Source: Trypanosoma brucei
Lineage: Eukaryota
Reading direction: 5' to 3'
Assembly (NCBI GenBank): GCA_000002445.1
Contig: CH464491.1
Span: forward strand, 2,304,001 to 2,368,000
Length of the DNA: 64,000 nucleotides
The notes beneath the pieces were generated by a model that was not told the origin of the DNA, searched no databases, and worked only from the letters and a program-made list of their open reading frames with translations. The translations under genes were made by a program, and so were the position numbers. Shown here piece by piece: positions 18,182 through 42,636 of this stretch. Position 1 is the first letter of the stretch. Every line of letters starts with the position of its first letter.

Positions 18182-18185
18182 TGCC

Positions 18186-18899: not shown

Positions 18900-18979
18900 A
18901 CACCTGCTATCAAACTACCCTAACCCAAGTGTCTGTTTGTTTCTTTACGTCACTGGGAGGGTTTTAACAAGAACTAACA
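18900..18979 (+). promoter_or_regulatory. putative trans-splicing acceptor region (polypyrimidine tract plus AG) upstream of the pol kappa ATG. It is repeated in every array unit.
   Basis: 'ctgtttgtttctttacgtcactgggagggttttaacaagaactaacattgagtctgactATG' contains a pyrimidine tract followed by several AG dinucleotides 10-45 nt before the ATG. This is the typical kinetoplastid organisation. Nothing has been mapped experimentally. Confidence 0.3.
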
Positions 18980-23228: not shown

Positions 23229-24018
23229 AATGAGGACATCAGTCAATAGAAATTCCCACATTGCCCAATGGTATTCATATACAAATCACCTATACACAAG
23301 TACCCATAAACAAAACACATTATACACATGTATTGTTATACACCTATCATATGTTTTCATTTTTTGAAGTTATACTTTATATGGTTTATTACTTACATTG
23401 TTTTTTTCTTAAGCATGCTTGTGCTCATGTACAACCAGTGGAGCAACTGGCTAATAACTCCTTCATCTTTGTGCGGACACCTTGGTGTATCCTATACTTT
23501 CTTTGAGGCCTTCTAATCCAGGTACTTTTTACACACTGTGACGCTAATAAGTGTAGTTCTTTCTTTTGATTAATGTCTACTGCGTGCAGTGATGCGAAAA
23601 AGTCTGTACTTTATTTGTATGTTTATCTTCGGGTTTGATTTGTTTGGTTGCTGATGACAGCGGAAGGCCTCTGCAATTATGAAAACTCATAAGGAGGTCC
23701 ACTATAATTATACTGTTGTTCCCAGATATACGGGTGTGCGCCTAAAGGGACACGTGACGTTCAAATTGGATATCCCTCCCATTGTTGACCGTATCTCACA
23801 TTATTGGATATGTTGTAATCACTGACGGCTTGCTGTGAACTGCCACAGCTGTACACATGCACACACATGTGATTCGGTTTTTCTTCTCCCAATATCCTTC
23901 CTTTCATATAATATAGGCAACCACACAATATTGGCACAACACCTGCTATCAAACTACCCTAACCCAAGTGTCTGTTTGTTTCTTTACGTCACTGGGAGGG
24001 TTTTAACAAGAACTAACA

Positions 24019-25746: not shown

Positions 25747-26539
25747 TGAAATGAGGACATCAGTCAATAGAAATTCCCACATTGCCCAATGGCATTCATA
25801 TACAAATCACCTATACACAAGTACCCATAAACAAAACACATTATACACATGTATTGTTATACAGCTATCATATGTTTTCATTTTTTGAAGTTATACTTTA
25901 TATGGTTTATTACTTACATTGTTTTTTTCTTAAGCATGCTTGTGCTCATGTACAACCAGTGGAGCAACTGGCTAATAACTCCTTCATCTTTGTGCGGACA
26001 CCTTGGTGTATCCTATACTTTCTTTGAGGCCTTCTAATCCAGGTACTTTTTACACACTGTGACGCTAATAAGTGTAGTTCTTTCTTTTGATTAATGTCTA
26101 CTGCGTGCGGTGATGCGAAAAAGTCTGTACTTTATTTGTATGTTTATCTTCGGGTTTGATTTGTTTGGTTGCTGATGACAGTGGAAGGTCTCTGCAATTA
26201 TGAAAACTCATAAGGAGGTCCACTATAATTATACTGTTGTTCCCAGATATACGGGTGTGCGCCTAAAGGGACAGGTGACGTTCAAATTGGATATCCCTCC
26301 CATTGTTGACCGTATCTCACATTATTGGATATGTTGTAATCACTGACGGCTTGCTGTGAACTGCCACAGCTGTACACATGCACACACATGTGATTCGGTT
26401 TTTCTTCTCCCAATATCCTTCCTTTCATATAATATAGGCAACCACACAATATTGGCACAACACCTGCTATCAAACTACCCTAACCCAAGTGTCTGTTTGT
26501 TTCTTTACGTCACTGGGAGGGTTTTAACAAGAACTAACA

Positions 26540-28267: not shown

Positions 28268-28957
28268 AATGAGGACATCAGTCAATAGAAATTCCCTTTA
28301 TTCTAGCGGCATATTTATAGATATTTATTTCGGTTTTCCCATTCGGCAGAGAGAAATACAACATGTATTAAGTATTGGGGAGCAACTGGCTAATAACTCC
28401 TTCATCTTTGTGCGGACACCTTGGTGTATCCTATACTTTCTTTGAGGCCTTCTAATCCAGGTACTTTTTACACACTGTGACGCTAATAAGTGTAGTTCTT
28501 TCTTTTGATTAATGTCTACTGCGTGCAGTGATGCGAAAAAGTGTGTACTTTATTTGTATGTTTATCTTCGGGTTTGATTTGTTTGGTTGCTGATGACAGC
28601 GGAAGGCCTCTGCAATTATGAAAACTCATAAGGAGGTCCACTATAATTATACTGTTGTTCCCAGATATACGGGTGTGCGCCTAAAGGGACAGGTGACGTT
28701 CAAATTGGATATCCCTCCCATTGTTGACCGTATCTCACATTATTGGATATGTTGTAATCACTGACGGCTTGCTGTGAACTGCCACAGCTGTACACATGCA
28801 CACACATGTGATTCGGTTTTTCTTCTCCCAATATCCTTCCTTTCATATAATATAGGCAACCACACAATATTGGCACAACACCTGCTATCAAACTACCCTA
28901 ACCCAAGTGTCTGTTTGTTTCTTTACGTCATTGGGAGGGTTTTAACAAGAACTAACA

Positions 28958-30685
28958 TTGAGTCTGACTATGTGTGGGGGAGAAGAGAATGGTGGATTGG
29001 ATCAGGCACATGTGTCCTACAGTGGCAGTGCGAGTGAGCAAAACATTGCGGAAATGATTGTAGACCCATCAGGTTCCCGTCAGCCCACAGCATTCCAACT
29101 CACACTCGATTGCAATAAGGCAGGAATGGGAAATGTGGATAAGGAACGTGTGGAAGCTATTATACGTAATGTATCTGAGGGTTCTTCCTTTTTGATGAAT
29201 GAGCAGCGGAAAGCTGAGGGTCGAGAGAAGCAACTGCAAGAGCTGAAGCGGAAATCATCTCTCTTCACTCGGTTGTTGGGTGGTGAACGAAACGCTGCGC
29301 AGCGGAAACAGTGGGAGCTGAAGGTTTCCAAAATAGAACAGGAGCTTGAGGCTACGCGTCGACTGGGAACTTATATCCATTTAGACATGGACATGTTTTA
29401 TGCTGCTGTTGAAATCAAGAAGCATCCGGAGTACGCCGCCATTCCGCTTGCCATAGGCACAATAACGAGGTTGATAACAACAAATTATGTTGCGCGTGGA
29501 CGTGGTATTCGTCAAGGTATGCCAGGTTTCCTTGCTCTAAAAATCTGCCCGAATTTGCTCATTCTGCCTCCTGATTTCGATGCTTACAACGAAGAATCCA
29601 ATACTGTGCGCCGTATTGTTGCTGAATACGACCCTAATTATATCAGCTTTGGTTTGGATGACTTTACTCTCGAAGTAAGTGCCTACATAGAGCGTTTTGA
29701 GGGAACCAAAACAGCCGAAGATGTGGCTTCTGAACTGCGTGTGCGTGTATTTGGTGAAACAAAGCTGACAGCAAGTGCTGGTATTGGACCCACTGCAGCA
29801 CTTGCCAAGATTGCCAGTAATATTAATAAGCCGAATGGACAACATGATCTTAATCTTCATACCCGAGAGGATGTGATGACATACGTCAGGGATTTGGGTC
29901 TACGTTCTGTGCCTGGTGTTGGGAAGGTTACGGAAGCTCTGTTGAAGGGACTGGGTATCACCACTCTCTCAGATATTTACAATAGGCGTGTTGAACTTTG
30001 TTACATTTTGCACAATAATTTATTTCGCTTTTTGCTTGGAGCTTCCATTGGCATTATGCAATGGCCCGATGCAGCAACGGCAGCCAATACCGAGAATTGT
30101 GAGGGGGCTACTGGAGAGCAACGGAAGGCAATCAGTAGCGAGCGATCCATCACTACTCCACGAACCAAAGAAGGTATGCAGGAAATGCTTGATACCGTAT
30201 TCAATGGTGCCTATGAAGAAATGCGGAAGAGTGAGATAATGTGTAGACGGATATCCCTCACAATTAGATGGGCCTCTTATCGTTATCAACAATACACAAA
30301 AAGTTTGATACAACATTCAGATGACTCTGCAACCCTTCGCCGCGCAGTGGATGGTTTACTGTTACCGCACGCTGCAAAGTATTCAGAGATGTGTTTGTTG
30401 GGGGTACGTCTCTCGGACCTTATCTCTGCAAAAGACTTTCATATGAAAAGAAAGGGTGGTAACCAACTGTCTATTTCACAATTTATTCGCCCCAAGAAGC
30501 CGGGTGAGGTAACAGCAACCACCGGTATAAAAAGGGAGAGGACTACTGAACCGAAACAGGTTGTGGAAATAATAATATCATCAGACGACGAGGATGAGAA
30601 TGATAGTGTTGGCTTGGCATCTAGCTCCACTATACTCGTTTCAACTGGCAAAGGTACTGTTGAGAGGGAAGTTACCATAATTTAG
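28958..30685 (+). CDS. DNA polymerase kappa (Y-family), array copy 6
   Basis: 575 aa ORF. Its cassette types match copy 1 (TITRLITTNYVARGRGIRQ, NYISFGLDDFTLEV). Confidence 0.85.
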   Translation: MSLTMCGGEENGGLDQAHVSYSGSASEQNIAEMIVDPSGSRQPTAFQLTLDCNKAGMGNVDKERVEAIIRNVSEGSSFLMNEQRKAEGREKQLQELKRKSSLFTRLLGGERNAAQRKQWELKVSKIEQELEATRRLGTYIHLDMDMFYAAVEIKKHPEYAAIPLAIGTITRLITTNYVARGRGIRQGMPGFLALKICPNLLILPPDFDAYNEESNTVRRIVAEYDPNYISFGLDDFTLEVSAYIERFEGTKTAEDVASELRVRVFGETKLTASAGIGPTAALAKIASNINKPNGQHDLNLHTREDVMTYVRDLGLRSVPGVGKVTEALLKGLGITTLSDIYNRRVELCYILHNNLFRFLLGASIGIMQWPDAATAANTENCEGATGEQRKAISSERSITTPRTKEGMQEMLDTVFNGAYEEMRKSEIMCRRISLTIRWASYRYQQYTKSLIQHSDDSATLRRAVDGLLLPHAAKYSEMCLLGVRLSDLISAKDFHMKRKGGNQLSISQFIRPKKPGEVTATTGIKRERTTEPKQVVEIIISSDDEDENDSVGLASSSTILVSTGKGTVEREVTII

Positions 30686-31478
30686 TGAAATGAGGGCATC
30701 AGTCAATAGAAATTCCCACATTGCCCAATGGCATTCATATACAAATCACCTATACACAAGTACCCATAAACAAAACACATTATACACATGTATTGTTATA
30801 CACCTATCATATGTTTTCATTTTTTGAAGTTATACTTTATATGGTTTATTACTTACATTGTTTTTTTCTTAAGCATGCTTGTGCTCATGTACAACCAGTG
30901 GAGCAACTGGCTAATAACTCCTTCATCTTTGTGCGGACACCTTGGTGTATCCTATACTTTCTTTGAGGCCTTCTAATCCAGGTACTTTTTACACACTGTG
31001 ACGCTAATAAGTGTAGTTCTTTCTTTTGATTAATGTCTACTGCGTGCAGTGATGCGAAAAAGTGTGTACTTTATTTGTATGTTTATCTTCGGGTTTGATT
31101 TGTTTGGTTGCTGATGACAGTGGAAGGTCTCTGCAATTATGAAAACTCATAAGGAGGTCCACTATAATTATACTGTTGTTCCCAGATATACGGGTGTGCG
31201 CCTAAAGGGACACGTGACGTTCAAATTGGATATCCCTCCCATTGTTGACCGTATCTCACATTATTGGATATGTTGTAATCACTGACGGCTTGCTGTGAAC
31301 TGCCACAGCTGTACACATGCACACACATGTGATTCGGTTTTTCTTCTCCTAATATCCTTCCTTTCATATAATATAGGCAACCACACAATATTGGCACAAC
31401 ACCTGCTATCAAACTACCCTAACCCAAGTGTCTGTTTGTTTCTTTACGTCACTGGGAGGGTTTTAACAAGAACTAACA

Positions 31479-32762
31479 TTGAGTCTGACTATGTGTGGGG
31501 GAGAAGAGAATGGTGGATTGGATCAGGCACATGTGTCCTACAGTGGCAGTGCGAGTGAGCAAAACATTGCGGAAATGATTGTAGACCCATCAGCTTCCCG
31601 TCAGCCCACAGCATTCCAACTCACACTCGATTGCAATAAGGCAGGAATGGGAAATGTGGATAAGGAACGTGTGGAAGCTATTATACGTAATGTATCTGAG
31701 GGTTCTTCCTTTTTGATGAATGAGCAGCGGAAAGCTGAGGGTCGAGAGAAGCAACTGCAAGAGCTGAAGCGGAAATCATCTCTCTTCACTCAGTTGTTGG
31801 ATGGTGAACGAAACGCTGCGCAGCGGAAACAGTGGGAGCTGAAGGTTTCCAAAATAGAACAGGAGCTTGAGGCTACGCGTCGACTGNGAACTTATATCCA
31901 TTTAGACATGGACATGTTTTATGCTGCTGTTGANATCAAGAAGCATCCGGAGTACGCCGCCATTCCGCTTGCCATAGNNNNNNNNNNNNNNNNNNNNNNN
32001 NNNNNNNNNNNNNNNNNNNNNNNNNNNNNNNNNNNNNNNNNNNNNNNNNNNNNNNNNNNNNNNNNNNNNNNNNNNNNCGAACTTTGTTATATCTTTACCG
32101 AAAAAACATATCGCTTTTTGCTTGGAGCTTCCATTGGCATTATGCAATGGCCCGATGCGTGTAATATACCGGGTGGCTCTGTCGATGATGGGACAGGTGT
32201 GGGAAGGAAGTCAGTTGGTAGTGAACGTACATTCAAAATATTGCAAAGCAAAGAGGAATTACAGGAAATTGTTGATTTTATTTTTAATTCTTCGTATGAT
32301 GAACTAAAGAAACATGAGCTGATGTGTAGACAGGTTTCGTTAAGAATAAGGTGGGCAACCTATCGATCCCGGCAGTATACTATGAATTTAGCCCAACATT
32401 CAGATGACTCTGCAACCCTTCGCCGCGCAGTGGATGGTTTACTGTTACCGCATGCTGCAAAGTACTCAGATATGTCGTTACTGGGGATGCGTCTGTTAGA
32501 CCTTATCTTTGCAAAAGACTTTCATATGAAAAAAAAGGGTGGTAACCAACTGTCTATTTCACAATTTATTCGCCCCAAGAAGCCGGGTGAGGTAACAGCA
32601 ACCACCGGTATAAAAAGGGAGAGGACTACTGAACCGAAACAGGTTGTGGAAATAATAATATCATCAGATGACGAGGATGAGAATGATAGTGTTGGCTTGG
32701 CATCTAGCTCCACTATACTCGTTTCAACTGGCAAAGGTACTGTGAGAGGGAAGTTACCATAA
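31479..32762 (+). CDS. DNA polymerase kappa (Y-family), array copy 7. Incomplete, interrupted by a 100-N gap and ambiguous bases, with a 1-nt deletion near the 3' end.
   Basis: The ORF is read through the N run at 31978-32077 (translated as X). About 420 bp of coding sequence is missing. The C-terminus reads 'GKGTVRGKLP*' instead of 'GKGTVEREVTII*' because of a missing t near 32742. Confidence 0.5.
   Translation: MSLTMCGGEENGGLDQAHVSYSGSASEQNIAEMIVDPSASRQPTAFQLTLDCNKAGMGNVDKERVEAIIRNVSEGSSFLMNEQRKAEGREKQLQELKRKSSLFTQLLDGERNAAQRKQWELKVSKIEQELEATRRLXTYIHLDMDMFYAAVXIKKHPEYAAIPLAIXXXXXXXXXXXXXXXXXXXXXXXXXXXXXXXXXXELCYIFTEKTYRFLLGASIGIMQWPDACNIPGGSVDDGTGVGRKSVGSERTFKILQSKEELQEIVDFIFNSSYDELKKHELMCRQVSLRIRWATYRSRQYTMNLAQHSDDSATLRRAVDGLLLPHAAKYSDMSLLGMRLLDLIFAKDFHMKKKGGNQLSISQFIRPKKPGEVTATTGIKRERTTEPKQVVEIIISSDDEDENDSVGLASSSTILVSTGKGTVRGKLP
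31978..32077. other. assembly gap (100 N) inside pol kappa copy 7. Single ambiguous bases also occur at 31887 and 31934.
   Basis: N run. Confidence 0.95.
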
Positions 32763-33555
32763 TTTAGTGAAGTGAGGACATCAGTCAATGGAAACGCTCA
32801 CATTGCCCAATGGCATTCATATACAAATCACCTATACACAAGTACCCATAAACAAAACACATTATACACATGTATTGTTATACAGCTATCATATGTTTTC
32901 ATTTTTTGAAGTTATACTTTATATGGTTTATTACTTACATTGTTTTTTCTTAAGCATGCTTGTGCTCATGTACAACCAGTGGAGCAACTGGCTAATAACT
33001 CCTTCATCTTTGTGCGGACACCTTGGTGTATCCTATACTTTCTTTGAGGCCTTCTAATCCAGGTACTTTTTACACACTGTGACGCTAATAAGTGTAGTTC
33101 TTTTGATTAATGTCTACTGCGTGCAGTGATGCGAAAAAGTGTGTACTTTATTTGTATGTTTATCTTCGGGTTTGATTTGTTTGGTTGCTGATGACAGTGG
33201 AAGGCCTCTGCAATTATGAAAACTCATAAGGAGGTCCACTACAATTATACTGTTGTTCCCAGATATACGGGTGTGCGCCTAAAGGGACACGTGACGTTCA
33301 AATTGGATATCCCTCCCATTGTTGACCGTATCTCACATTATTGGATATGTTGTAATCACTGACGGCTTGCTGTGAACTGCCACAGCTGTACACATGCACA
33401 CACATGTGATTCGGTTTTTCTTCTCCCAATATCCTTCCTTTCATATAATATAGGCAACCACACAATATTGGCACAACACCTGCTATCAAACTACCCTAAC
33501 CCAAGTGTCTGTTTGTTTCTTTACGTCACTGGGAGGGTTTTAACAAGAACTAACA

Positions 33556-35280
33556 TTGAGTCTGACCATGTGTGGGGGAGAAGAGAATGGTGGATTGGAT
33601 CAGGCACATGTGTCCTACAGTGGCAGTGCGAGTGAGCAAAACATTGCGGAAATGATTGTAGGCCCATCAGCTTCCATCACCATGGGTTTTCCGTTTTCCA
33701 TCGATTGCAATAAGGCAGGAATGGGAAATGTGGATAAGGAACGTGTGGAAGCTATTATACGTGATGCCAGGGAAGGATCCCCCTTTCTATTGAATGAACA
33801 ACGTTTGGCTGAGGGTCGAGAGAAGCAACTGCAAGAGCTCAAACGGAAATCATCTCTCTTCACTCAGTTGTTGGGTGGTGAACGAAACGCTGCGCAGCGG
33901 AAACAGTGGGAGCTGAAGGTTTCCAAAATGGAGCAGGAGCTTGAGGCTACGCGTCGACTGGGAACTTATATCCATTTAGACATGGACATGTTTTATGCTG
34001 CTGTTGAAATCAAGAAGCATCCGGAGTACGCCACCATTCCGCTTGCCATAGGCACCATGACGAGGCTACAAACAGCAAATTACATTGCGCGTGGACGTGG
34101 TGTCCGTCCCGGTATGCCAGGTTTCCTTGCTCTAAAAATCTGCCCAAATCTACTATTACTCCCTCCCGATGATGATTCTTACTATTTGGAATCCAATATC
34201 GTACGTCGTATTGTTGCTGAATACGACCCTAATTACATAGTTGTTGGTTTGGATGACTTTACTCTCGAAGTAAGTGCCTACATAGAGCGTTTTGAGGGAA
34301 CCAAAACAGCCGAAGATGTGGCTTCTGAACTGCGTGTGCGTGTATTTGGTGAAACAAAGTTGACAGCAAGTGCTGGTATTGGACCCACTGCAGCACTTGC
34401 CAAGATTGCCAGTAATATTAATAAGCCGAATGGACAACATGATCTTAATCTTCACACCCGAGGGGATGTGATGACATACGTCAGGGATTTGGGTCTACGT
34501 TCTGTGCCTGGTGTTGGGAAGGTTACGGAAGCTCTGTTGAAGGGACTGGGTATCACCACTCTCGGCGACATTCACGATAGGCGTGTTGAACTTTGTTACA
34601 TTTTGCACAATAATTTATTTCGCTTTTTGCTTGGAGCTTCCATTGGCATTATGCAATGGCCCGATGCAGCAACGGCAGCCAATACCGAGAATTGTGAGGG
34701 GGCTACTGGAGGGCAACGGAAGGCAATCAGTAGCGAGCGATCTTTTTATGTGTTACATAGCAAAGAGCAGTTGCATGAAATGATTTACAGTATTTTTGAA
34801 GAGGCCTATGAAGAAATGCGACAGAATGAGATGTTGTGTCGTCAGATCTCCTTGCTTGTGCGTTGGTCGTCTTATCGTTATCAACAATACACAAAAAGTT
34901 TGATACAATATTCAGATGACTCTGCAACCCTTCGCCGCGCAGTGGATGGTTTACTGTTACCGCACGCTGCAAAGTATTCAGAGATGTGTTTGTTGGGGGT
35001 ACGTTTTCTTGACCTTATCTCTGCAAAAGACTTTCATATGAAAAGAAAGGGTGGTAACCAACTGTCTATTTCACAATTTATTCGCCCCAAGAAGCCGGGT
35101 GAGGTAACAGCAACCACCGGTATAAAAAGGGAGAGGACTACTGAACCGAAACAGGTTGTGGAAATAATAATATCATCAGACGACGAGGATGAGAATGATA
35201 GTGTTGGCTTGGCATCTAGCTCCACTATACTCGTTTCAACTGACAAAGGTACTGTTGAGAGGGAAGTTACCATAATTTAG
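33556..35280 (+). CDS. DNA polymerase kappa (Y-family), array copy 8
   Basis: 574 aa ORF. It has a unique N-terminal patch 'GPSASITMGFPFSID' (a 27-nt block replacing the usual 30 nt) and the cassette 'LLLLPPDDDSYYLESNIVRR'. Confidence 0.85.
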   Translation: MSLTMCGGEENGGLDQAHVSYSGSASEQNIAEMIVGPSASITMGFPFSIDCNKAGMGNVDKERVEAIIRDAREGSPFLLNEQRLAEGREKQLQELKRKSSLFTQLLGGERNAAQRKQWELKVSKMEQELEATRRLGTYIHLDMDMFYAAVEIKKHPEYATIPLAIGTMTRLQTANYIARGRGVRPGMPGFLALKICPNLLLLPPDDDSYYLESNIVRRIVAEYDPNYIVVGLDDFTLEVSAYIERFEGTKTAEDVASELRVRVFGETKLTASAGIGPTAALAKIASNINKPNGQHDLNLHTRGDVMTYVRDLGLRSVPGVGKVTEALLKGLGITTLGDIHDRRVELCYILHNNLFRFLLGASIGIMQWPDAATAANTENCEGATGGQRKAISSERSFYVLHSKEQLHEMIYSIFEEAYEEMRQNEMLCRQISLLVRWSSYRYQQYTKSLIQYSDDSATLRRAVDGLLLPHAAKYSEMCLLGVRFLDLISAKDFHMKRKGGNQLSISQFIRPKKPGEVTATTGIKRERTTEPKQVVEIIISSDDEDENDSVGLASSSTILVSTDKGTVEREVTII

Positions 35281-36073
35281 TGAAATGAGGACATCAGTCA
35301 ATAGAAATTCCCACATTGCCCAATGGCATTCATATACAAATCACCTATACACAAGTACCCATAAACAAAACACATTATACACATGTATTGTTATACACCT
35401 ATCATATGTTTTCATTTTTTGAAGTTATACTTTATATGGTTTATTACTTACATTGTTTTTTTCTTAAGCATGCTTGTGCTCATGTACAACCAGTGGAGCA
35501 ACTGGCTAATAACTCCTTCATCTTTGTGCGGACACCTTGGTGTATCCTATACTTTCTTTGAGGCCTTCTAATCCAGGTACTTTTTACACACTGTGACGCT
35601 AATAAGTGTAGTTCTTTCTTTTGATTAATGTCTACTGCGTGCAGTGATGTGAAAAAGTCTGTACTTTATTTGTATGTTTATCTTCGGGTTTGATTTGTTT
35701 GGTTGCTGATGACAGTGGAAGGTCTCTGCAATTATGAAAACTCATAAGGAGGTCCACTATAATTATACTGTTGTTCCCAGATATACGGGTGTGCGCCTAA
35801 AGGGACAGGTGACGTTCAAATTGGATATCCCTCCCATTGTTGACCGTATCTCACATTATTGGATATGTTGTAATCACTGACGGCTTGCTGTGAACTGCCA
35901 CAGCTGTACACATGCACACACATGTGATTCGGTTTTTCTTCTCCCAATATCCTTCCTTTCATATAATATAGGCAACCACACAATATTGGCACAACACCTG
36001 CTATCAAACTACCCTAACCCAAGTGTCTGTTTGTTTCTTTACGTCACTGGGAGGGTTTTAACAAGAACTAACA

Positions 36074-37801
36074 TTGAGTCTGACTATGTGTGGGGGAGAA
36101 GAGAATGGTGGATTGGATCAGGCACATGTGTCCTACAGTGGCAGTGCGAGTGAGCAAAACATTGCGGAAATGATTGTAGACCCATCAGGTTCCCGTCAGC
36201 CCACAGCATTCCAACTCACACTCGATTGCAATAAGGCAGGAATGGGAAATGTGGATAAGGAACGTGTGGAAGCTATTATACGTGATGCCAGGGAAGGCAC
36301 ACCTTTTTTATTAAATGAACAACGTTTGGCTGAGGGTCGAGAGAAGCAACTGCAAGAGCTGAAGCGGAAATCATCTCTCTTCACTCGGTTGTTGGGTGGT
36401 GAACGAAACGCTGCGCAGCGGAAACAGTGGGAGCTGAAGGTTTCCAAAATAGAACAGGAGCTTGAGGCTACGCGTCGACTGGGAACTTATATCCATTTAG
36501 ACATGGACATGTTTTATGCTGCTGTTGAAATCAAGAAGCATCCGGAGTACGCCACCATTCCGCTTGCCATAGGCACCATGACTATGATAATAACAACAAA
36601 TTATGTTGCGCGTGGACGTGGTATTCGTCAAGGTATGCCAGGTTTCCTTGCTCTAAAAATCTGCCCAAATCTACTATTACTCCCTCCCGATGATGATTCC
36701 TACTATTTGGAATCCAATATCGTACGTCGTATTGTTGCTGAATACGACCCTAATTATATAGTTGTTGGTTTGGATGACTTTACTCTCGAAGTAAGTGCCT
36801 ACATAGAGCGTTTTGAGGGAACCAAAACAGCCGAAGATGTGGCTTCTGAACTGCGTGTGCGTGTATTTGGTGAAACAAAGTTGACAGCAAGTGCTGGTAT
36901 TGGACCCACTGCAGCACTTGCCAAGATTGCCAGTAATATTAATAAGCCGAATGGACAACATGATCTTAATCTTCACACGCGAGGGGATGTGATGACATAC
37001 GTCAGGGATTTGGGTCTACGTTCTGTGCCTGGTGTTGGGAAGGTTACGGAAGCTCTGTTGAAGGGACTGGGTATCACCACTCTCTCAGATATTTACAATA
37101 GGCGTGTTGAACTTTGTTACATTTTGCACAATAATTTATTTCGCTTTTTGCTTGGAGCTTCCATTGGCATTATGCAATGGCCCGATGCAGCAACGGCAGC
37201 CAATACCGAGAATTGTGAGGGGGCTACTGGAGAGCAACGGAAGGCAATCAGTAGCGAGCGATCCATCACTACTCCACGAACCAAAGAAGGTATGCAGGAA
37301 ATGGTTGATACCGTATTCAATGGTGCCTATGAAGAAATGCGGAAGAGTGAGATAATGTGTAGACGGATATCCCTCACAATTAGATGGGCCTCTTATCGTT
37401 ATCAACAATACACAAAAAGTTTGATACAATATTCAGATGACTCTGCAACCCTTCGCCGCGCAGTAGACGAGCTCATGTTACCGCACGCTGCAAAGTATTC
37501 AGAGATGTGTTTGTTGGGGGTACGTCTCTCGGACCTTATCTCTGCAAAAGACTTTCATATGAAAAGAAAGGGTGGTAACCAACTGTCTATTTCACAATTT
37601 ATTCGCCCCAAGAAGCCGGGTGAGGTAACAGCAACCACCGGTATAAAAAGGGAGAGGACTACTGAACCGAAACAGGTTGTGGAAATAATAATATCATCAG
37701 ATGACGAGGATGAGAATGATAGTGTTGGCTTGGCATCTAGCTCCACTATACTCGTTTCAACTGGCAAAGGTACTGTTGAGAGGGAAGTTACCATAATTTA
37801 G
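36074..37801 (+). CDS. DNA polymerase kappa (Y-family), array copy 9
   Basis: 575 aa ORF with cassette 'TMTMIITTNYVARGRGIRQ' plus 'LLLLPPDDDSYYLESNIVRR'. Confidence 0.85.
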   Translation: MSLTMCGGEENGGLDQAHVSYSGSASEQNIAEMIVDPSGSRQPTAFQLTLDCNKAGMGNVDKERVEAIIRDAREGTPFLLNEQRLAEGREKQLQELKRKSSLFTRLLGGERNAAQRKQWELKVSKIEQELEATRRLGTYIHLDMDMFYAAVEIKKHPEYATIPLAIGTMTMIITTNYVARGRGIRQGMPGFLALKICPNLLLLPPDDDSYYLESNIVRRIVAEYDPNYIVVGLDDFTLEVSAYIERFEGTKTAEDVASELRVRVFGETKLTASAGIGPTAALAKIASNINKPNGQHDLNLHTRGDVMTYVRDLGLRSVPGVGKVTEALLKGLGITTLSDIYNRRVELCYILHNNLFRFLLGASIGIMQWPDAATAANTENCEGATGEQRKAISSERSITTPRTKEGMQEMVDTVFNGAYEEMRKSEIMCRRISLTIRWASYRYQQYTKSLIQYSDDSATLRRAVDELMLPHAAKYSEMCLLGVRLSDLISAKDFHMKRKGGNQLSISQFIRPKKPGEVTATTGIKRERTTEPKQVVEIIISSDDEDENDSVGLASSSTILVSTGKGTVEREVTII

Positions 37802-38594
37802 TGAAATGAGGACATCAGTCAATAGAAATTCCCACATTGCCCAATGGCATTCATATACAAATCACCTATACACAAGTACCCATAAACAAAACACATTATA
37901 CACATGTATTGTTATACACCTATCATATGTTTTCATTTTTTGAAGTTATACTTTATATGGTTTATTACTTACATTGTTTTTTTCTTAAGCATGCTTGTGC
38001 TCATGTACAACCAGTGGAGCAACTGGCTAATAACTCCTTCATCTTTGTGCGGACACCTTGGTGTATCCTATACTTTCTTTGAGGCCTTCTAATCCAGGTA
38101 CTTTTTACACACTGTGACGCTAATAAGTGTAGTTCTTTCTTTTGATTAATGTCTACTGCGTGCAGTGATGCGAAAAAGTCTGTACTTTATTTGTATGTTT
38201 ATCTTCGGGTTTGATTTGTTTGGTTGCTGATGACAGTGGAAGGTCTCTGCAATTATGAAAACTCATAAGGAGGTCCACTATAATTATACTGTTGTTCCCA
38301 GATATACGGGTGTGCGCCTAAAGGGACACGTGACGTTCAAATTGGATATCCCTCCCATTGTTGACCGTATCTCACATTATTGGATATGTTGTAATCACTG
38401 ACGGCTTGCTGTGAACTGCCACAGCTGTACACATGCACACACATGTGATTCGGTTTTTCTTCTCCCAATATCCTTCCTTTCATATAATATAGGCAACCAC
38501 ACAATATTGGCACAACACCTGCTATCAAACTACCCTAACCCAAGTGTCTGTTTGTTTCTTTACGTCACTGGGAGGGTTTTAACAAGAACTAACA

Positions 38595-40322
38595 TTGAGT
38601 CTGACTATGTGTGGGGGAGAAGAGAATGGTGGATTGGATCAGGCACATGTGTCCTACAGTGGCAGTGCGAGTGAGCAAAACATTGCGGAAATGATTGTAG
38701 ACCCATCAGGTTCCCGTCAGCCCACAGCATTCCAACTCACACTCGATTGCAATAAGGCAGGAATGGGAAATGTGGATAAGGAACGTGTGGAAGCTATTAT
38801 ACGTAATGTATCTGAGGGTTCTTCCTTTTTGATGAATGAACAACGTTTGGCTGAGGGTCGAGAGAAGCAACTGCAAGAGCTCAAACGGAAATCATCTCTC
38901 TTCACTCAGTTGTTGGGTGGTGAACGAAACGCTGCGCAGCGGAAACAGTGGGAGCTGAAGGTTTCCAAAATAGAACAGGAGCTTGAGGCTACGCGTCGAC
39001 TGGGAACTTATATCCATTTAGACATGGACATGTTTTATGCTGCTGTTGAAATCAAGAAGCATCCGGAGTACGCCGCCATTCCGCTTGCCATAGGCACCAT
39101 GACGAGGCTACAAACAGCAAATTACATTGCGCGTGGACGTGGTGTTCGATGTAGCATGCCAGGTTTCCTTGCTCTAAAAATCTGCCCGAATTTGCTCATT
39201 CTGCCTCCTGATTTCGATGCTTACAACGAGGAATCCAATACTGTGCGCCGTATTGTTGCTGAATACGACCCTAATTATATCAGCTTTGGTTTGGATGAAC
39301 TGACCCTTGAGGTAAGTGCCTACATAGAGCGTTTTGAGGGAACCAAAACAGCCGAAGATGTGGCTTCTGAACTGCGTGTGCGTGTATTTGGTGATACAAA
39401 GTTGACAGCAAGTGCTGGTATTGGACCCACTGCAGCACTTGCCAAGATTGCCAGTAATATTAATAAGCCGAATGGACAACATGATCTTAATCTTCATACC
39501 CGAGAGGATGTGATGACATACGTCAGGGATTTGGGTCTACGTTCTGTGCCTGGTGTTGGGAAGGTTACGGAAGCTCTGTTGAAGGGACTGGGTATCACCA
39601 CTCTCTCAGATATTTACAATAGGCGTGTTGAACTTTGTTACATTTTGCACAATAATTTATTTCGCTTTTTGCTTGGAGCTTCCATTGGCATTGTGCAATG
39701 GCCCGATGCAGCAACGGCAGCCAATACCGAGAATTGTGAGGGGGCTACTGGAGGGCAACGGAAGGCAATCAGTAGCGAGCGATCCATCACTACTCCACGA
39801 ACCAAAGAAGGTATGCAGGAAATGGTTGATACCGTATTCAATGGTGCCTATGAAGAAATGCGGAAGAGTGAGCTGATGTGTAGACGCATTTCGTTAAGAA
39901 TAAGGTGGGCCTCCTATCGTTATCAACAATACACAAAAAGTTTGATACAATATTCAGATGACTCTGCAACCCTTCGCCGCGCAGTGGATGGTTTACTGTT
40001 ACCGCATGCTGCAAAGTATTCAGAGATTTCACTGTTGGGGGTACGTTTTCTTGACCTTATCTTTGCAAAAGACTTTCATATGAAAAGAAAGGGTGGTAAC
40101 CAACTGTCTATTTCACAATTTATTCGCCCCAAGAAGCCGGGTGAGGTAACAGCAACCACCGGTATAAAAAGGGAGAGGACTACTGAACCGAAACAGGTTG
40201 TGGAAATAATAATATCATCAGACGACGAGGATGAGAATGATAGTGTTGGCTTGGCATCTAGCTCCACTATACTCGTTTCAACTGACAAAGGTACTGTTGA
40301 GAGGGAAGTTACCATAATTTAG
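38595..40322 (+). CDS. DNA polymerase kappa (Y-family), array copy 10 (terminal)
   Basis: 575 aa ORF. It has 'RGVRCSMPGF' and, like copy 1, 'YSEISLLGVRFLDL'. The intergenic region after it has a 30-bp deletion relative to other units. Confidence 0.85.
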   Translation: MSLTMCGGEENGGLDQAHVSYSGSASEQNIAEMIVDPSGSRQPTAFQLTLDCNKAGMGNVDKERVEAIIRNVSEGSSFLMNEQRLAEGREKQLQELKRKSSLFTQLLGGERNAAQRKQWELKVSKIEQELEATRRLGTYIHLDMDMFYAAVEIKKHPEYAAIPLAIGTMTRLQTANYIARGRGVRCSMPGFLALKICPNLLILPPDFDAYNEESNTVRRIVAEYDPNYISFGLDELTLEVSAYIERFEGTKTAEDVASELRVRVFGDTKLTASAGIGPTAALAKIASNINKPNGQHDLNLHTREDVMTYVRDLGLRSVPGVGKVTEALLKGLGITTLSDIYNRRVELCYILHNNLFRFLLGASIGIVQWPDAATAANTENCEGATGGQRKAISSERSITTPRTKEGMQEMVDTVFNGAYEEMRKSELMCRRISLRIRWASYRYQQYTKSLIQYSDDSATLRRAVDGLLLPHAAKYSEISLLGVRFLDLIFAKDFHMKRKGGNQLSISQFIRPKKPGEVTATTGIKRERTTEPKQVVEIIISSDDEDENDSVGLASSSTILVSTDKGTVEREVTII

Positions 40323-40701
40323 TGAAATGAGGACATCAGTCAATAGAAATTCCCACATTGCCCAATGGCATTCATATACAAATCACCTATACACAAGTAT
40401 TGTTATACAGCTATCATATGTTTTCATTTTTTGAAGTTATACTTTATATGGTTTATTACTTACATTGTTTTTTTCTTAAGCATGCTTGTGCTCATGTACA
40501 ACCAGTGGAGCAACTGGCTAATAACTCCTTCATCTTTGTGCGGACACCTTGGTGTATCCTATACTTTCTTTGAGGCCTTCTAATCCAGGTACTTTTTACA
40601 CACTGTGACGCTAATAAGTGTAGTTCTTTCTTTTGATTAATGTCTACTGCGTGCAGTGATGCGAAAAAGTCTGTACTTTATTTGTATGTTTATCTTCGGG
40701 T

Positions 40702-42636
40702 TTGATTTGTTTGGTTGCTGATGGCAGTGGAAGGCCTCTGCAATTATGTTTGTGTTTTTGTTTCTCTGTGTTGCTGTTTTTCTATATTTTTGGAGTTTGT
40801 TTTTTTTCTTCCTGTTTTTTTGCACTTCTTTTCTTTGCTTTCCTCTTGCAACATATTTTTTTATGTAATTGTATTTTTTTTGTGTGTGTAATGGTGGCGG
40901 ATGTTGTTTTTGTTTTAGTAGTTGAAGTTTTTGTTTGTTGTTGGATTGAGAGCGACAACGGTAGTTTGCTGATGGTTTCGTTTATTTACAGCTGCGTCTC
41001 TAGTCGTCTGATGTTTGCTAGTGTGAAGAGGGCTGTTGGGCAATATTCATGTTTTCATGTGATTTGTTCCCCGCGCTTCCACAGTAACTATGTTGTGGGG
41101 GTCAACAAGGCGCCTAGTTGGATCGCGTCCCCGACAGAAAGGCGACGAAAGTTTGGTGAAGAGTGCCTTGCCGAAGGTAAAGAGCGGGATGGCGACATGG
41201 ATGTAGAGCTTGTTCCCGTGGACGTGAAAAAGCTTGCTTTGCCCCTGCACCTCACGGACTCGATCCCGCAGGATATCGTCGATAATATCGTTGCGAGAGA
41301 TAGAACACTTGTTTTCGCGCCAAACATGAAGATACTAGACCTGCACAGGCGGTTGTCCCGGATGAAGTATCGGATAAGCGTCCAGCCGCTTGGGAAGGTG
41401 CTGCACTTCCGATTCTTTCGGCTGTGTAAATTGTCCAGCGGTATGCCCGGAGATGTTACAGTGGAAACCTTCCGCAGCATCCAGCAGAAACTCTCCGAGT
41501 ACACAAGATTTTTGGTGATGGATGAACGTTGGCCACTGGAGTTGTCATTAGAAATTACCCCCATTATTGAGCATCAACGGAAGCAAATGCTTGAATGCCA
41601 AGGGGAATGCCGCGTTTCAACGGCGGAGGATGTAATGGAGTTACTTAGTAGTGTTTTTTCCGCTGAGCTCCGCGTGGGGGCGTGGTGCGGTTTGTCTTGC
41701 ACACCAGTCTTGGCGAAGATGGCGTGCGACGAGTGTCACAGGAAACACAAACTATGCCGACAGGACTATTCTCGCGGTGGGGTAGTAGGTACCGTGCGTT
41801 ACGATATTAGGTCGCACAAGGAGGCAAAGGAGTTTGTGCAGAACCTTTCGTTGGGCGATATTCCTGTTGTTGGGAAGCCACAGGCGAGGCTCCTGGAAGA
41901 TGTTTATGGCATTACCAAATGCGGCGGGATTGCGGATCAGGAGGTAAGACTGGGTTTCAGCCTGTCGCAGTCGACGATGGAGTTCTTCCTCTCTGTAGCG
42001 TATGGCACCGTTCGACTCCCTAGCGAGGCCACCACCACGCTTTTGCGCAAACCGCCGAGATGTAAGGCCGCCCATATACGGCGCGAGTCACAGTTTGGCC
42101 GTGTGGTATCAGACGAACAGTTTATCAACACCGTAATGTCCGTCTTCGACAACGTGTACACAGACCTTGTGGAACATGATTTCGTGACGGGACGGGTCAT
42201 GATCGAGACACGCCGCACACTCCCGCGCACTCATTGGGTGGTTGAAGAGAGCGAAGACATTGCGCCCCGAACGAACGACCGCGATTTGCTGCGGGAGGTA
42301 ACGATCCGCCTCGCAAGACGTTTTGCCCCACGGCGAACCGAAGAGCTGCGAGACATTTACAGCGTTGGTGTTCATTTCGGAGACGTGCGCTCGTGGTCAG
42401 AGAATGAGAGGTTGCAGAAGAAAGCTGTTGCAGTGAGCGAAGGGGGCAGCCCCACGACAGGCGGAAGGAAGGATGGCGTTATCGGTGCGGCGAACGGTGT
42501 CCCGGCGCCTACAGTGCCCAAGGGTAGCTCTTCCGCTGGGGCACGACAGCAGAAAAGAAAGAGAACGGGCACCGGTCCAAAGCCGTTGAGGAAAGGCAAG
42601 ATGGGGGCGGCATCGGGAATTCGCATCGTCACATAA
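40702..42636 (+). CDS. divergent Y-family DNA polymerase-like protein (distant pol kappa paralog). Catalytic motifs appear degenerate.
   Basis: The 644 aa ORF aligns by eye to the pol kappa copies: 'TAEDVMELLSSVFSAELRVGAWCGLSCTPVLAKMAC' vs 'TAEDVASELRVRVFGETKLTASAGIGPTAALAKIAS'; 'LSLGDIPVVGKPQARLLEDVYGITKCGGIAD' vs 'LGLRSVPGVGKVTEALLKGLGITTLSDI'; 'SGMPGD' vs 'PGMPGY'; 'LELSLEITPIIE' vs 'LDELTLEVSAYIE'. The first 100 codons are pyrimidine-rich leader that partly lies inside the array repeat. The true start is probably a downstream Met, for example MFASVKR near 41015. Confidence 0.65.
   Translation: MICLVADGSGRPLQLCLCFCFSVLLFFYIFGVCFFSSCFFALLFFAFLLQHIFLCNCIFFVCVMVADVVFVLVVEVFVCCWIESDNGSLLMVSFIYSCVSSRLMFASVKRAVGQYSCFHVICSPRFHSNYVVGVNKAPSWIASPTERRRKFGEECLAEGKERDGDMDVELVPVDVKKLALPLHLTDSIPQDIVDNIVARDRTLVFAPNMKILDLHRRLSRMKYRISVQPLGKVLHFRFFRLCKLSSGMPGDVTVETFRSIQQKLSEYTRFLVMDERWPLELSLEITPIIEHQRKQMLECQGECRVSTAEDVMELLSSVFSAELRVGAWCGLSCTPVLAKMACDECHRKHKLCRQDYSRGGVVGTVRYDIRSHKEAKEFVQNLSLGDIPVVGKPQARLLEDVYGITKCGGIADQEVRLGFSLSQSTMEFFLSVAYGTVRLPSEATTTLLRKPPRCKAAHIRRESQFGRVVSDEQFINTVMSVFDNVYTDLVEHDFVTGRVMIETRRTLPRTHWVVEESEDIAPRTNDRDLLREVTIRLARRFAPRRTEELRDIYSVGVHFGDVRSWSENERLQKKAVAVSEGGSPTTGGRKDGVIGAANGVPAPTVPKGSSSAGARQQKRKRTGTGPKPLRKGKMGAASGIRIVT

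What the first reader, a model, noticed from the sequence alone, without database searches (positions are those of the whole stretch)
40702..42636. Highly diverged, probably catalytically dead Y-family polymerase paralog directly flanking the array
The 644-aa ORF downstream of the last pol kappa copy is recognisably homologous to the array genes in the palm/thumb/HhH regions (TAEDV..., ...TPVLAKMAC, IPVVGKPQARLLEDVYGIT) but has only 25-30% identity. By eye, the positions of the catalytic acidic motifs are changed: DMDMFYAAVE appears as about 'DIVDNIVARDR', and the S-LDE motif appears as 'LELSLEI'. It also has a basic K/R-rich C-terminal tail. This may be a pseudo-polymerase derived from the array, perhaps a non-catalytic scaffold or regulator.
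Basis: inference. Interest (0 to 1): 0.7.

Follow-up and report, generated by a model that had tools for sequence, protein, structure and literature searches.

The report
Dead pol kappa paralogue on kinetoplast DNA
The gene after the Trypanosoma brucei DNA polymerase kappa array (Tb927.11.8700) is an ancient, conserved polymerase-kappa relative that has lost a catalytic aspartate and the nucleotide-binding motifs, and a published tagging screen lists it among the proteins located on the mitochondrial (kinetoplast) DNA, so it most likely acts as a DNA-binding or adaptor protein and not as a polymerase.

Summary

GLDELTLEV appears as WPLELSLEI, and this Asp is never acidic in the 30 distinct family members tabulated. 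The motif I call is probably misplaced: a relaxed profile alignment puts DMDMFYAAVE opposite GDMDVELVPVD, and 'NIVARDR' matches the fingers motif ANYIARGRG. The steric gate, [ST]xNYxAR, KPNG and the N-clasp are all absent. A polymerase-dead protein is therefore very likely.

It does not derive from the T. brucei array. The gene order polK-A, polK-B, paralogue recurs in T. cruzi, T. melophagium and Leishmania mexicana. Family N-termini look like mitochondrial presequences. TrypTag source data list Tb927.11.8700 among 19 'kinetoplast' proteins, and its mRNA is present in both life stages.

My best reading is a non-catalytic kDNA-bound pseudo-polymerase, functionally analogous to bacterial ImuB but of independent origin. 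The mechanism is inferred. Interest is moderate.

The parts
40972..42636 (+). CDS of Tb927.11.8700 (554 aa from the orthologue-conserved ATG plus a TAA stop). The TREU927 annotation starts at ATG 40891 (581 aa). The 40702 start is a bacterial-code TTG artefact.
   Evidence: The identity with Tb927.11.8700 rests on the CDS length of 1746 nt and on the neighbouring genes.
40972..41190 (+). N-terminal extension (aa 1-73). It resembles a mitochondrial presequence: no acidic residue before aa 56 and 4 K/R in the first 40 aa. It has no N-clasp.
   Evidence: One search gives the composition across 25 family members. One search shows the N-clasp motif in 0/25. pLDDT is below 50 in both models. The targeting function is inferred, and it agrees with the TrypTag 'kinetoplast' listing.
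41191..41223 (+). Probable motif I remnant GDMDVELVPVD (D75, D77). The steric-gate FY is replaced by EL, and AA by VP.
   Evidence: Relaxed hhalign aligns it with hLDMDMFYAAVE, at low confidence. Column counts: Asp1 is D in 11/20 (A2) and 16/20 (A5). No beta1 strand is predicted and pLDDT is below 50.
41239..41304 (+). Fingers remnant LPLHLTDSIPQDIVDNIVARDR. PLH corresponds to canonical PLA/PFAVG, and NIVARDR to ANYIARGRG.
   Evidence: alignment. H93 is invariant in the family. [ST]xNYxAR is found in 0/25.
41530..41559 (+). Motif III remnant WPLELSLEIT. The catalytic Asp is replaced by Leu189 (41536-41538), and Glu190 (41539-41541) is retained.
   Evidence: (alignments). The position is N/L/G/V/T/R and never D/E. 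Glu is present in 19/20.
41677..41727 (+). Conserved palm strand and helix GAWCGLSCTPVLAKMAC. Lys249 is invariant and corresponds to the canonical LAKIAS lysine.
   Evidence: pLDDT is 90-96.
41815..42006 (+). Thumb with a helix-hairpin-helix (aa 282-345, including IPVVGKPQARLLEDVYGIT).
   Evidence: A PDB profile search hits only the pol kappa and Pol IV thumb, E 7e-5. Pfam IMS_HHH scores 15.1 bits, below its cut-off. hhalign covers it. pLDDT is above 90.
42076..42423 (+). Little-finger/PAD-like domain (aa 369-484). Family-conserved residues are G376 and R377 (within ...FGR...) and R454/R455 (within ...APRR...).
   Evidence: The hhalign alignment runs to residue 477 (profile column 484). Model 1 predicts a beta-alpha-beta-beta-alpha-beta topology with pLDDT 60-88. 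Model 2 is poor here.
42541..42633 (+). Basic C-terminal tail (ARQQKRKRTGTGPKPLRKGK) followed by a conserved hydrophobic terminal peptide (ASGIRIVT). The family consensus is PRGIxVVM in Trypanosoma and VDxV-h-h-V in Leishmaniinae.
   Evidence: A role in DNA or partner binding is inferred.
40373..40748 (+). Upstream intergenic segment shared at 97-98% identity with the spacer of every array repeat. The array repeat unit ends here, just ahead of the paralogue's own T-rich 5' region.
16958..18186 (+). A 99.2%-identical second copy of the paralogue's upstream region and first 209 codons (annotated XP_828923.1, 234 aa). It ends exactly at a 100-N scaffold gap (18187-18286), so it is probably an assembly artefact and not a real truncated gene.
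   Evidence: The read-depth copy number of Tb927.11.8700 is 1.
15164..40322 (+). Context: a tandem array of 10 canonical pol kappa copies (about 571 aa) with DMDMFY and GLDEL intact in the copies read in full.

Best explanation
Tb927.11.8700 is an ancient, trypanosomatid-wide paralogue of DNA polymerase kappa. It keeps the Y-family architecture: the C-terminal half of the palm, the thumb with its helix-hairpin-helix, and the little finger.

It has lost the machinery for nucleotide addition. One of the three metal-binding carboxylates is gone (the motif III Asp is Leu in T. brucei and Asn, Gly, Val, Thr or Arg elsewhere). The steric-gate aromatic residue, the fingers motif [ST]xNYxAR, the KPNG triphosphate-binding lysine motif and the pol kappa N-clasp are also absent.

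The protein carries an N-terminal mitochondrial presequence-like extension, and a published tagging screen places it on the kinetoplast (mitochondrial DNA network).

The most likely mechanism has three steps:
1. The protein is imported into the mitochondrion.
2. It binds kDNA through the retained thumb, little finger, the Lys249 helix and the basic C-terminal tail. Likely targets are primer-template junctions, gaps or lesions in minicircles.
3. It acts without catalysis, as an occupancy or recruitment factor. It would mark or shield such sites and recruit or regulate active kDNA repair or replication enzymes through its conserved C-terminal peptide.

Basis of each step:
- Shown here: the homology, the loss of the motifs, the conservation and the synteny.
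- From published datasets: the kinetoplast listing and mRNA expression.
- Inferred: DNA binding, the preferred substrate and partner recruitment.
For: Homology and fold:
- BLASTP E 2e-11.
- Pfam IMS above its cut-off.
- hhalign probability 99.7% from E190 to the end of the PAD.
- The PDB profile search hits only pol kappa and Pol IV.

Loss of catalysis:
- The motif III Asp position is never acidic in the two 20-sequence family alignments (30 distinct sequences), while Glu is present in 19/20.
- HMMER aligns canonical glDEltldvt with L. braziliensis fpNELAIDVT.
- KPNG, [ST]xNYxAR and the N-clasp motif occur in 0/25 paralogues, against 15/18, 15/18 and 12/18 canonical sequences.
- Most canonical representatives found in the same search keep DMDMF[FY] and GLDEL.
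- From my own knowledge of the field (not checked here): Asp-to-Asn at this position (E. coli dinB D103N) and D198A/E199A in human pol kappa are standard polymerase-dead mutants.

Functional gene under selection:
- The ORF is intact in more than 25 species or clusters.
- Identity is about 50% within Trypanosoma. That equals the T. brucei to T. cruzi identity of canonical pol kappa (48%).
- mRNA is about 1.2 copies per cell in bloodstream forms and 1.3 in procyclic forms.

Ancient origin:
- The order polK, polK, paralogue, hypothetical gene is conserved in T. melophagium, T. cruzi and L. mexicana.

Location:
- N-termini have 0 acidic and 4-10 basic residues in the first 40 aa in most members.
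- Tb927.11.8700 is listed under 'kinetoplast' (19 proteins) in the TrypTag source data (PMC9981465).
- The gene identity was established through a CDS length of 1746 nt, the annotation 'DNA PolY-like superfamily domain', the neighbour Tb927.11.8710 (1533 nt) and eIF4AIII Tb927.11.8770.
Against: - T. brucei and most family members keep an Asp at the probable motif I position (D75: 11/20 and 16/20). Glu190 and an acidic residue at position 194 are conserved. A non-canonical metal site therefore cannot be strictly excluded.
- The N-terminal (motif I and fingers) alignment has low confidence. It appears only with relaxed hhalign settings, HMMER cannot align it, and both AF2 models leave residues 70-79 unstructured.
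- The helix-hairpin-helix glycine is lost outside Trypanosoma, which weakens the claim of conserved DNA binding.
- The basic tail (KRKR...RKGK) could also be read as a nuclear localisation signal.
- I saw the TrypTag localisation only as an entry in a source-data list. I did not see the images or learn which terminus was tagged.
- There are no binding, interaction or phenotype data for this protein.
Confidence: 0.6

Rival explanations
1. It is a kDNA packaging or structural protein. The degenerate Y-family fold and the basic tail would serve only as a general DNA-binding module, comparable in role to the basic kinetoplast-associated proteins. It would have no specific link to lesion bypass, gaps or other polymerases.
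For: - TrypTag lists it under 'kinetoplast', meaning the disc and not the antipodal replication sites.
- The C-terminal tail is lysine/arginine-rich.
- The fingers and dNTP-pocket motifs are lost, and the helix-hairpin-helix glycine is not conserved outside Trypanosoma.
Against: - Strong conservation of palm and thumb residues (GAWCG..TP.LAKMAC, Glu190, G376-R377 within the FGR/YGR motif) and of the whole multi-domain architecture suggests more than non-specific charge binding.
- mRNA abundance is low, about 1 copy per cell, which is atypical for a bulk packaging protein.
- The extreme C-terminal peptide is conserved and is shared with canonical trypanosomatid pol kappas, which points to a partner interaction.
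Confidence: 0.2
2. It is a 'prozyme'-type partner. The dead paralogue would form a complex with an active pol kappa and activate or regulate it, as the dead paralogues of AdoMetDC and deoxyhypusine synthase do in trypanosomatids. A candidate partner is the mitochondrial pol kappa form described in T. cruzi.
For: - A dead paralogue encoded next to its active relatives is conserved across trypanosomatids.
- The prozyme strategy recurs in this lineage (PMC3663545 and PMC5201418).
- Canonical and dead copies share a hydrophobic C-terminal peptide.
- In T. cruzi and T. melophagium the short pol kappa form has a presequence-like N-terminus. One T. cruzi pol kappa is reported to be mitochondrial (PMC7576959 and PMC10719067).
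Against: - As far as I know, Y-family polymerases work as monomers on DNA and are not known to need homodimerisation.
- This T. brucei window has no presequence-bearing short pol kappa. All 10 array copies start MCGGEENGG... and are closer to the long T. cruzi form. Yet the dead paralogue is retained.
- There is no interaction evidence.
Confidence: 0.1
3. It is still an enzyme: a polymerase or nucleotidyl transferase with a non-canonical active site built from D75, E190 and E194, or an enzyme with a different activity.
For: - D75 and D77 are present in T. brucei.
- Glu190 is nearly invariant.
- An acidic residue at position 194 is invariant.
Against: - The motif III Asp, which bridges both metals in known Y-family structures, is never acidic.
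- D75 is N, A, S, T, R or E in several members.
- The steric gate, the fingers Tyr/Arg and the KPNG lysine that hold the incoming nucleotide are all missing.
- The acidic residue at position 194 also exists in active enzymes (LEV/LDI), where it is not catalytic.
- The beta1 strand that should carry D75 is not predicted.
Confidence: 0.07
4. It is a decaying pseudogene or an annotation artefact with no function.
For: - Similarity to the array genes is low (24%).
- NCBI names it 'hypothetical protein'.
- A truncated second copy exists in the assembly.
Against: - Full-length intact ORFs occur in all sampled trypanosomatid genera, with conserved motifs and synteny.
- mRNA is detected in both life stages.
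- The tagged protein has a specific localisation.
- The truncated copy abuts an N gap.
Confidence: 0.01

Closest known systems
Eukaryotic DNA polymerase kappa / DinB branch of the Y family (human POLK; T. cruzi Pol kappa; the adjacent T. brucei array genes)
   Same: - Common descent is clear. It gives the best sequence, profile and structure matches.
- The domain order is the same: palm, fingers, palm, thumb (helix-hairpin-helix), little finger.
- The genomic neighbourhood is the same, and the hydrophobic extreme C-terminal peptide resembles that of trypanosomatid pol kappas.
   Different: - The motif III Asp is replaced.
- The steric gate, [ST]xNYxAR, KPNG and the N-clasp are absent.
- The fingers region cannot be aligned by HMMER.
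- It has a presequence-like N-terminus and a kinetoplast listing.
- It has presumably no polymerase activity.
[quoted passage not shown]
   Same: Both have a Y-family fold without a complete catalytic carboxylate set. Both are maintained by selection and presumed to act as a non-catalytic hub or adaptor at DNA (PMC6511836 and PMC11791113). This is the closest functional analogy.
   Different: - The origin is independent: it derives from the eukaryotic pol kappa lineage, and no NCBIfam bacterial family is hit.
- There is no ImuA/DnaE2 context, no beta-clamp motif and no RecA-NT motif.
- It is eukaryotic and organellar (kDNA).
- Its partners are unknown.
Trypanosomatid 'prozymes' (dead paralogues of AdoMetDC, DHS)
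   Same: It is a lineage-typical case of a conserved, catalytically dead paralogue kept beside an active enzyme (PMC3663545 and PMC5201418).
   Different: Prozymes act by obligate hetero-oligomerisation with the active subunit. No such complex is known or predicted here, and Y-family polymerases are monomeric enzymes.
Rev1 (a Y-family member whose main role is as a scaffold)
   Different: Rev1 keeps an intact active site and has BRCT, UBM and C-terminal polymerase-interaction domains, none of which was detected here.

Membership tests
Y-family DNA polymerase superfamily (by descent and fold) | Palm domain homologous to Pfam IMS (PF00817) | tested here: met
   PF00817 scores 24.8 bits against a cut-off of 23.2, E 2.3e-5, but covers only profile positions 66-148. 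hhalign gives probability 99.7%.
Y-family DNA polymerase superfamily (by descent and fold) | Thumb with a helix-hairpin-helix, and a little-finger/PAD domain C-terminal to the palm | tested here: met
   - The thumb aligns to pol kappa and Pol IV chains in the PDB, E 7e-5.
- The hhalign alignment continues through the PAD to residue 477 (profile column 484).
- Foldseek aligns about 435 columns to pol kappa.
- Pfam IMS_HHH is below its cut-off and IMS_C is not detected.
Catalytically competent Y-family polymerase | Three conserved carboxylates (motif I Asp; motif III Asp-Glu) | tested here: not met
   The motif III Asp is Leu189 in T. brucei and N/L/G/V/T/R in 20/20 sequences of each of the two family alignments. 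Glu is kept in 19/20. The motif I Asp is present in T. brucei (D75) but only in 11/20 and 16/20 of the family, and its alignment has low confidence.
Catalytically competent Y-family polymerase | Nucleotide-binding residues: steric-gate Tyr/Phe, fingers [ST]xNYxAR, and the lysine of KPNG | tested here: not met
   The steric-gate position is mostly Leu (L80 in T. brucei). [ST]xNYxAR and KPNG occur in 0/25 paralogues and in 15/18 canonical sequences.
Catalytically competent Y-family polymerase | Template-directed primer extension in vitro | not testable with these tools
   This needs a biochemical assay.
DNA polymerase kappa orthologue group | Closest relatives among Y-family branches are pol kappa/DinB | tested here: met
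DNA polymerase kappa orthologue group | N-clasp extension preceding the palm | tested here: not met
   The motif KAG[ML]..VDK occurs in 12/18 canonical trypanosomatid-like pol kappas and in 0/25 paralogues. The 73 aa before the motif I remnant are presequence-like and unstructured.
ImuB family | Sequence membership and ImuA/DnaE2 gene context; beta-clamp and RecA-NT motifs | tested here: not met
   No NCBIfam hit with E below 1 other than a spurious one. The nearest relatives are eukaryotic pol kappa. The gene is eukaryotic and nuclear-encoded. The resemblance to ImuB is functional only.
Trypanosomatid prozyme-type pseudoenzyme | Catalytically dead paralogue of an active enzyme encoded in the same genome | tested here: met
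   (by sequence criteria).
Trypanosomatid prozyme-type pseudoenzyme | Physical complex with the active paralogue, and activation of it | not testable with these tools
   This needs co-purification and activity assays, or complex structure prediction, which was not available here.
Kinetoplast (kDNA)-associated proteins | Experimental localisation to the kDNA disc | tested here: met
   Literature data were used and no new experiment was done. Tb927.11.8700 is listed under 'kinetoplast' in the TrypTag source data (PMC9981465). The gene identity was verified.

The most novel reading that the evidence does not exclude
A eukaryotic, organellar counterpart of the bacterial ImuB principle. A pol kappa-derived pseudo-polymerase sits on kinetoplast DNA, recognises gaps or lesions in minicircles, and serves as the hub that recruits or hands over to active kDNA polymerases or ligases (for example Pol beta-PAK, POLI-type enzymes or mitochondrial pol kappa). 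This would be a convergently evolved 'dead Y-family adaptor' governing damage tolerance in a mitochondrial genome.
Probability: 0.2. Interest if true: 0.7.

Novelty: new variant of a known kind. Interest (0 to 1): 0.5.

Why it matters
Trypanosomatid genome papers count pol kappa copies as evidence of expanded translesion capacity. By gene order, the third Leishmania 'POLK' gene (LmjF/LmxM.28.1430, LinJ.28.1550) is probably the orthologue of this gene. It has been treated as a polymerase in gene-family surveys and in a drug-resistance transcriptome study (PMC7576959, PMC12578213, PMC6626383). Showing that this conserved member lacks the catalytic machinery changes that count.

Together with the published kinetoplast listing, it also defines a concrete and uncharacterised kDNA protein. 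It is absent from the curated kDNA maintenance table in PMC10719067. It is a eukaryotic example of an inactivated Y-family polymerase kept for a non-catalytic role. It is a testable entry point into how gaps and lesions in the minicircle network are recognised.

Tried and rejected
I tested DMDMFYAAVE = DIVDNIVARDR. It was rejected in favour of GDMDVELVPVD by relaxed hhalign with two family profiles, by the roughly 105-aa spacing to motif III, and by the predicted order of secondary-structure elements. The alternative register still has low confidence.\n- **hhalign -glob.** With the Trypanosoma-only profile it gave a meaningless alignment.\n- **HMMER on the N-terminal third.** A canonical palm/fingers HMM run with filters off could not align it. 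All Trypanosoma hits start at the Glu of the DE motif.\n- **Word-indexed homologue searches.** The single sequence and the Trypanosoma profile returned only 11 Trypanosoma proteins. The exhaustive representative search was needed to reach other genera. A third search with a non-Trypanosoma profile recovered Leishmania, Porcisia and Leptomonas.\n- **NCBIfam.** No bacterial DinB, UmuC or ImuB model was hit.\n- **PDB sequence search.** The protein is not a subunit of any solved trypanosomal complex.\n- **Foldseek against afdb50.** The library was not available.\n- **Second AF2 model with a deeper alignment.** It improved the palm and thumb, degraded the PAD, and did not resolve residues 70-79.\n- **Gene-ID guesses.** Tb927.11.8540/8550/8510/8520, Tbg972.11.9730, TcCLB.503755.40 and LmjF/LmxM.28.1440 gave no main-text hits for the paralogue. 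The ID was finally fixed through eIF4AIII (Tb927.11.8770) and a supplementary table of CDS lengths.\n- **Leishmania ID.** Supplements of PMC7576959 did not hold the Leishmania IDs. The equation LmxM.28.1430 = paralogue therefore rests on gene order only.\n- **'Derived from the array' and 'pseudogene'.** Both were considered and rejected on synteny and conservation.\n- **The 234-aa upstream copy.** I rejected it as a genuine truncated gene because it ends at an N gap.
Full report
**1. What is at the coordinates**

The window is Trypanosoma brucei brucei TREU927 chromosome 11. The ORF translation is 100% identical to a T. b. gambiense 'hypothetical protein, conserved' apart from three substitutions. 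It equals TREU927 XP_828934.1 over the shared length.

The 644-aa ORF at 40702-42636 is produced by a bacterial TTG start. Its first 90 codons are the T-rich intergenic tract. The ATG at 40972 gives a 554-aa protein whose N-terminus (MVSFIYSCVSS...) lines up with the orthologues' starts (MSFTSCVRY..., MLFTSCARY...). AG dinucleotides at 40917-40926 follow the polypyrimidine tract and lie between the annotated ATG (40891) and 40972. I therefore take 40972-42636 as the CDS. TREU927 annotates 581 aa.

Upstream lie ten canonical pol kappa copies (15164-40322), which are 84-97% identical to the last copy at the protein level. The last copy ends at 40322. The array's spacer sequence continues to 40748, immediately before the paralogue's own 5' region.

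**2. Is it a Y-family homologue**

Yes, by every test run:
- BLASTP against the last array copy gives 24% identity over 254 aa, E 2e-11.
- Pfam IMS is just above its gathering score, but only for the C-terminal half of the model.
- A profile of 11 Trypanosoma orthologues finds only pol kappa and Pol IV chains in the PDB, through the thumb.
- hhalign against 19 canonical pol kappas gives probability 99.7%, E 4e-26. The alignment runs from Glu190 through thumb and little finger to residue 477 (profile column 484).
- Two AlphaFold2 models have a confident palm and thumb (pLDDT 84-97 in model 2); the little finger is moderately confident (pLDDT about 60-88) in model 1 only.
- Foldseek's best hits are human pol kappa (E 8e-13, about 435 aligned columns).

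**3. The catalytic motifs**

Canonical GLDELTLEV aligns with WPLELSLEI, so the Asp becomes Leu189 and the Glu (E190) is kept. In two family alignments (20 sequences each, 30 distinct) this Asp position is N, L, G, V, T or R and never acidic. The Glu is present in 19/20. Leishmania has Asn there. To my knowledge this is the same change as the classical polymerase-dead E. coli dinB D103N allele.

With relaxed alignment settings, both family profiles place hLDMDMFYAAVEIK opposite GDMDVELVPVDVK (aa 74-86). They place PLA opposite PLH, ANYIARGRG opposite DNIVARDR, and then run into motif III. The spacing and the predicted helix/strand order agree with this register.

This part of the alignment has low confidence. 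HMMER cannot reproduce it, and AF2 leaves residues 70-79 unstructured. On this register T. brucei retains D75 and D77. The first Asp is D in only 11/20 (A2) or 16/20 (A5) family members. The steric-gate position is Leu.

Independently of any alignment, KPNG, [ST]xNYxAR and the N-clasp motif are found in 0/25 paralogues, against 15/18, 15/18 and 12/18 canonical sequences. Most canonical representatives retrieved in the same search keep DMDMF[FY] and GLDEL. I conclude that polymerase activity is very probably lost. I put this sub-claim at about 0.85.

**4. Age and distribution**

The exhaustive profile search found 40 hits. Three Trypanosoma clusters scored strongly. Twelve further motif-less clusters had E values from 1e-20 to 4e-6, including Phytomonas, Angomonas, Leptomonas and Lotmaria. 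The remainder were canonical pol kappas. A follow-up search added Leishmania (five species), Porcisia and Leptomonas seymouri.

Synteny is conserved. T. melophagium, T. cruzi and L. mexicana chromosome 28 all have two IMS-domain genes, then the paralogue, then a Pfam-less hypothetical gene. The paralogue is therefore ancient. It predates the T. brucei amplification and is not a derivative of the array.

Its T. brucei to T. cruzi identity (about 50%) matches that of canonical pol kappa (48%). Between Trypanosoma and Leishmania it has diverged more (about 26% against 42-44%).

By gene order, and because LmjF28.1410 is the first pol kappa gene after the amastins (PMC2794310), the Leishmania orthologue is probably LmjF/LmxM.28.1430. 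That gene is annotated 'DNA polymerase kappa, putative' and is counted as a POLK copy. This equation is an inference.

**5. Gene identity and published data**

eIF4AIII is Tb927.11.8770 (PMC11888146). It matches the 401-aa DEAD-box ORF at 54200-55405.

[quoted passage not shown] It is followed in the numbering by Tb927.11.8710 (hypothetical, 1533 nt). A CDS of 1746 nt is 581 codons plus a stop, which is exactly the TREU927 model. A CDS of 1533 nt fits the next ORF, 42853-44394. The candidate is therefore Tb927.11.8700.

The same table gives about 47 RPKM in bloodstream forms and 69 RPKM in procyclic forms, or roughly 1.2-1.3 mRNAs per cell.

The TrypTag genome-wide tagging resource lists Tb927.11.8700 among only 19 proteins with a 'kinetoplast' localisation (PMC9981465, source data for Extended Data Fig. 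8f). No paper in the searchable library mentions the ID in its main text. It is absent from the kDNA-protein table of the review PMC10719067.

**6. Other features**

Family N-termini resemble mitochondrial presequences. An example is Leishmania MFRAARAGRTVALSLPHRRAALL..., with 9 basic and 0 acidic residues in the first 40. T. brucei has no acidic residue before position 56. This fits the kinetoplast listing.

The C-terminus has a basic tail and a conserved hydrophobic terminal peptide: PRGIxVVM in Trypanosoma and VDxV-h-h-V in Leishmaniinae. Canonical trypanosomatid pol kappas end similarly (EVTII, DEVIVLS, RVIFCI). This suggests a shared partner-binding peptide, which is an inference.

**7. 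Interpretation**

The best-supported reading is a catalytically inactive, pol kappa-derived pseudo-polymerase that resides on kDNA and works through binding and not through synthesis.

The retained thumb, little finger, Lys249 helix and basic tail are the plausible DNA-binding surface. Minicircle gaps, primer-template junctions or lesions are plausible targets. The C-terminal peptide is a plausible recruitment handle.

The nearest functional precedent is bacterial ImuB, a dead Y-family hub (PMC6511836), but the origin is independent. The trypanosomatid prozyme paradigm is a rival mechanism. A purely structural DNA-packaging role is another. Residual non-canonical catalysis is unlikely but not excluded.

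**8. Verdict**

The motif I details and the 'derived from the array' origin do not.

The Y-family similarity and the localisation already exist in databases. The loss of the catalytic apparatus, the pan-trypanosomatid conservation and the link between these facts are, as far as the searchable literature shows, not described.

I rate it a new variant of a known kind (inactivated Y-family polymerase), of moderate interest.

Noticed in passing
window 16958-18186 and 18187-18286: There is a 99.2%-identical duplicate of the paralogue's upstream region and first 209 codons (annotated as the 234-aa XP_828923.1). It sits between pol kappa copies 1 and 2 and ends exactly at a run of 100 N. The last 87 bases are only 95% identical, as expected for low-quality contig ends. 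It is probably a scaffolding artefact; the published read-depth copy number of the gene is 1.
   Followed up: yes
window 31478-32762 (N run 31978-32077; single N at 31887 and 31934): The apparently truncated 427-aa pol kappa copy spans another 100-N gap. Its 'internal deletion' (residues 163-341 missing) is an assembly gap and not a real deletion.
   Followed up: partly
window 15164-16881: The first pol kappa copy has a frame change near 15379-15388. Residues 1-75 are in one frame and residues 73-571 in another. This may be a pseudogene or a sequencing error.
   Followed up: no
window 15164-40322: The ten pol kappa copies are unusually divergent for a T. brucei tandem array, at 84-97% amino-acid identity to the last copy. 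This suggests diversification and not pure dosage amplification.
   Followed up: no
window 15164-40322 compared with L004 7510-9054, L001 7876-9426: T. cruzi and T. melophagium have a long pol kappa and a short (about 515 aa) pol kappa with a presequence-like N-terminus (MQRCWARVSPAVFHRRIRGKKR...). All T. brucei array copies start MCGGEENGG... and are closer to the long T. cruzi form (48% against 42%). No presequence-bearing canonical pol kappa is present at this T. brucei locus. The review PMC10719067 lists Tb927.11.8530 as 'Pol kappa' of kDNA on the basis of T. cruzi data only.
   Followed up: partly
C-termini of window 38607-40319 and 40972-42633; P0030, P0037, P0078 etc.: Both canonical trypanosomatid pol kappas and the dead paralogues end in a short hydrophobic peptide, often preceded by acidic residues (EVTII, DEVIVLS, VDSVVYV, PRGIVVVM). 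This looks like a SIM-like or beta-strand-addition motif, which may be a shared partner-binding site.
   Followed up: no
L002 10001-12178 (L. mexicana chr 28): By gene order, the Leishmania orthologue of the dead paralogue is probably LmxM/LmjF.28.1430 (LinJ.28.1550). That gene is annotated 'DNA polymerase kappa, putative', is counted as a POLK copy in two papers, and is reported as up-regulated in antimony-resistant L. amazonensis. Pfam detects no IMS domain in it.
   Followed up: partly
window 42853-44394: The next gene (Tb927.11.8710, about 510 aa, no Pfam domain) lies in a markedly GC-richer stretch (0.58 against 0.44 upstream). It keeps its position after the paralogue in T. melophagium, T. 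cruzi and probably L. mexicana.
   Followed up: no
window 9200-15100: A stretch of about 6 kb with low GC (0.35-0.39) and no long ORF lies between a CCCH zinc-finger gene (8573-9196) and the first pol kappa copy.
   Followed up: no
P0028, P0033, P0039 (unnamed Logan clusters): A divergent sub-group of the dead-paralogue family has large insertions in the fingers region and a TAVQAK motif in place of TPVLAK. It comes from unidentified organisms, possibly early-branching kinetoplastids.
   Followed up: no
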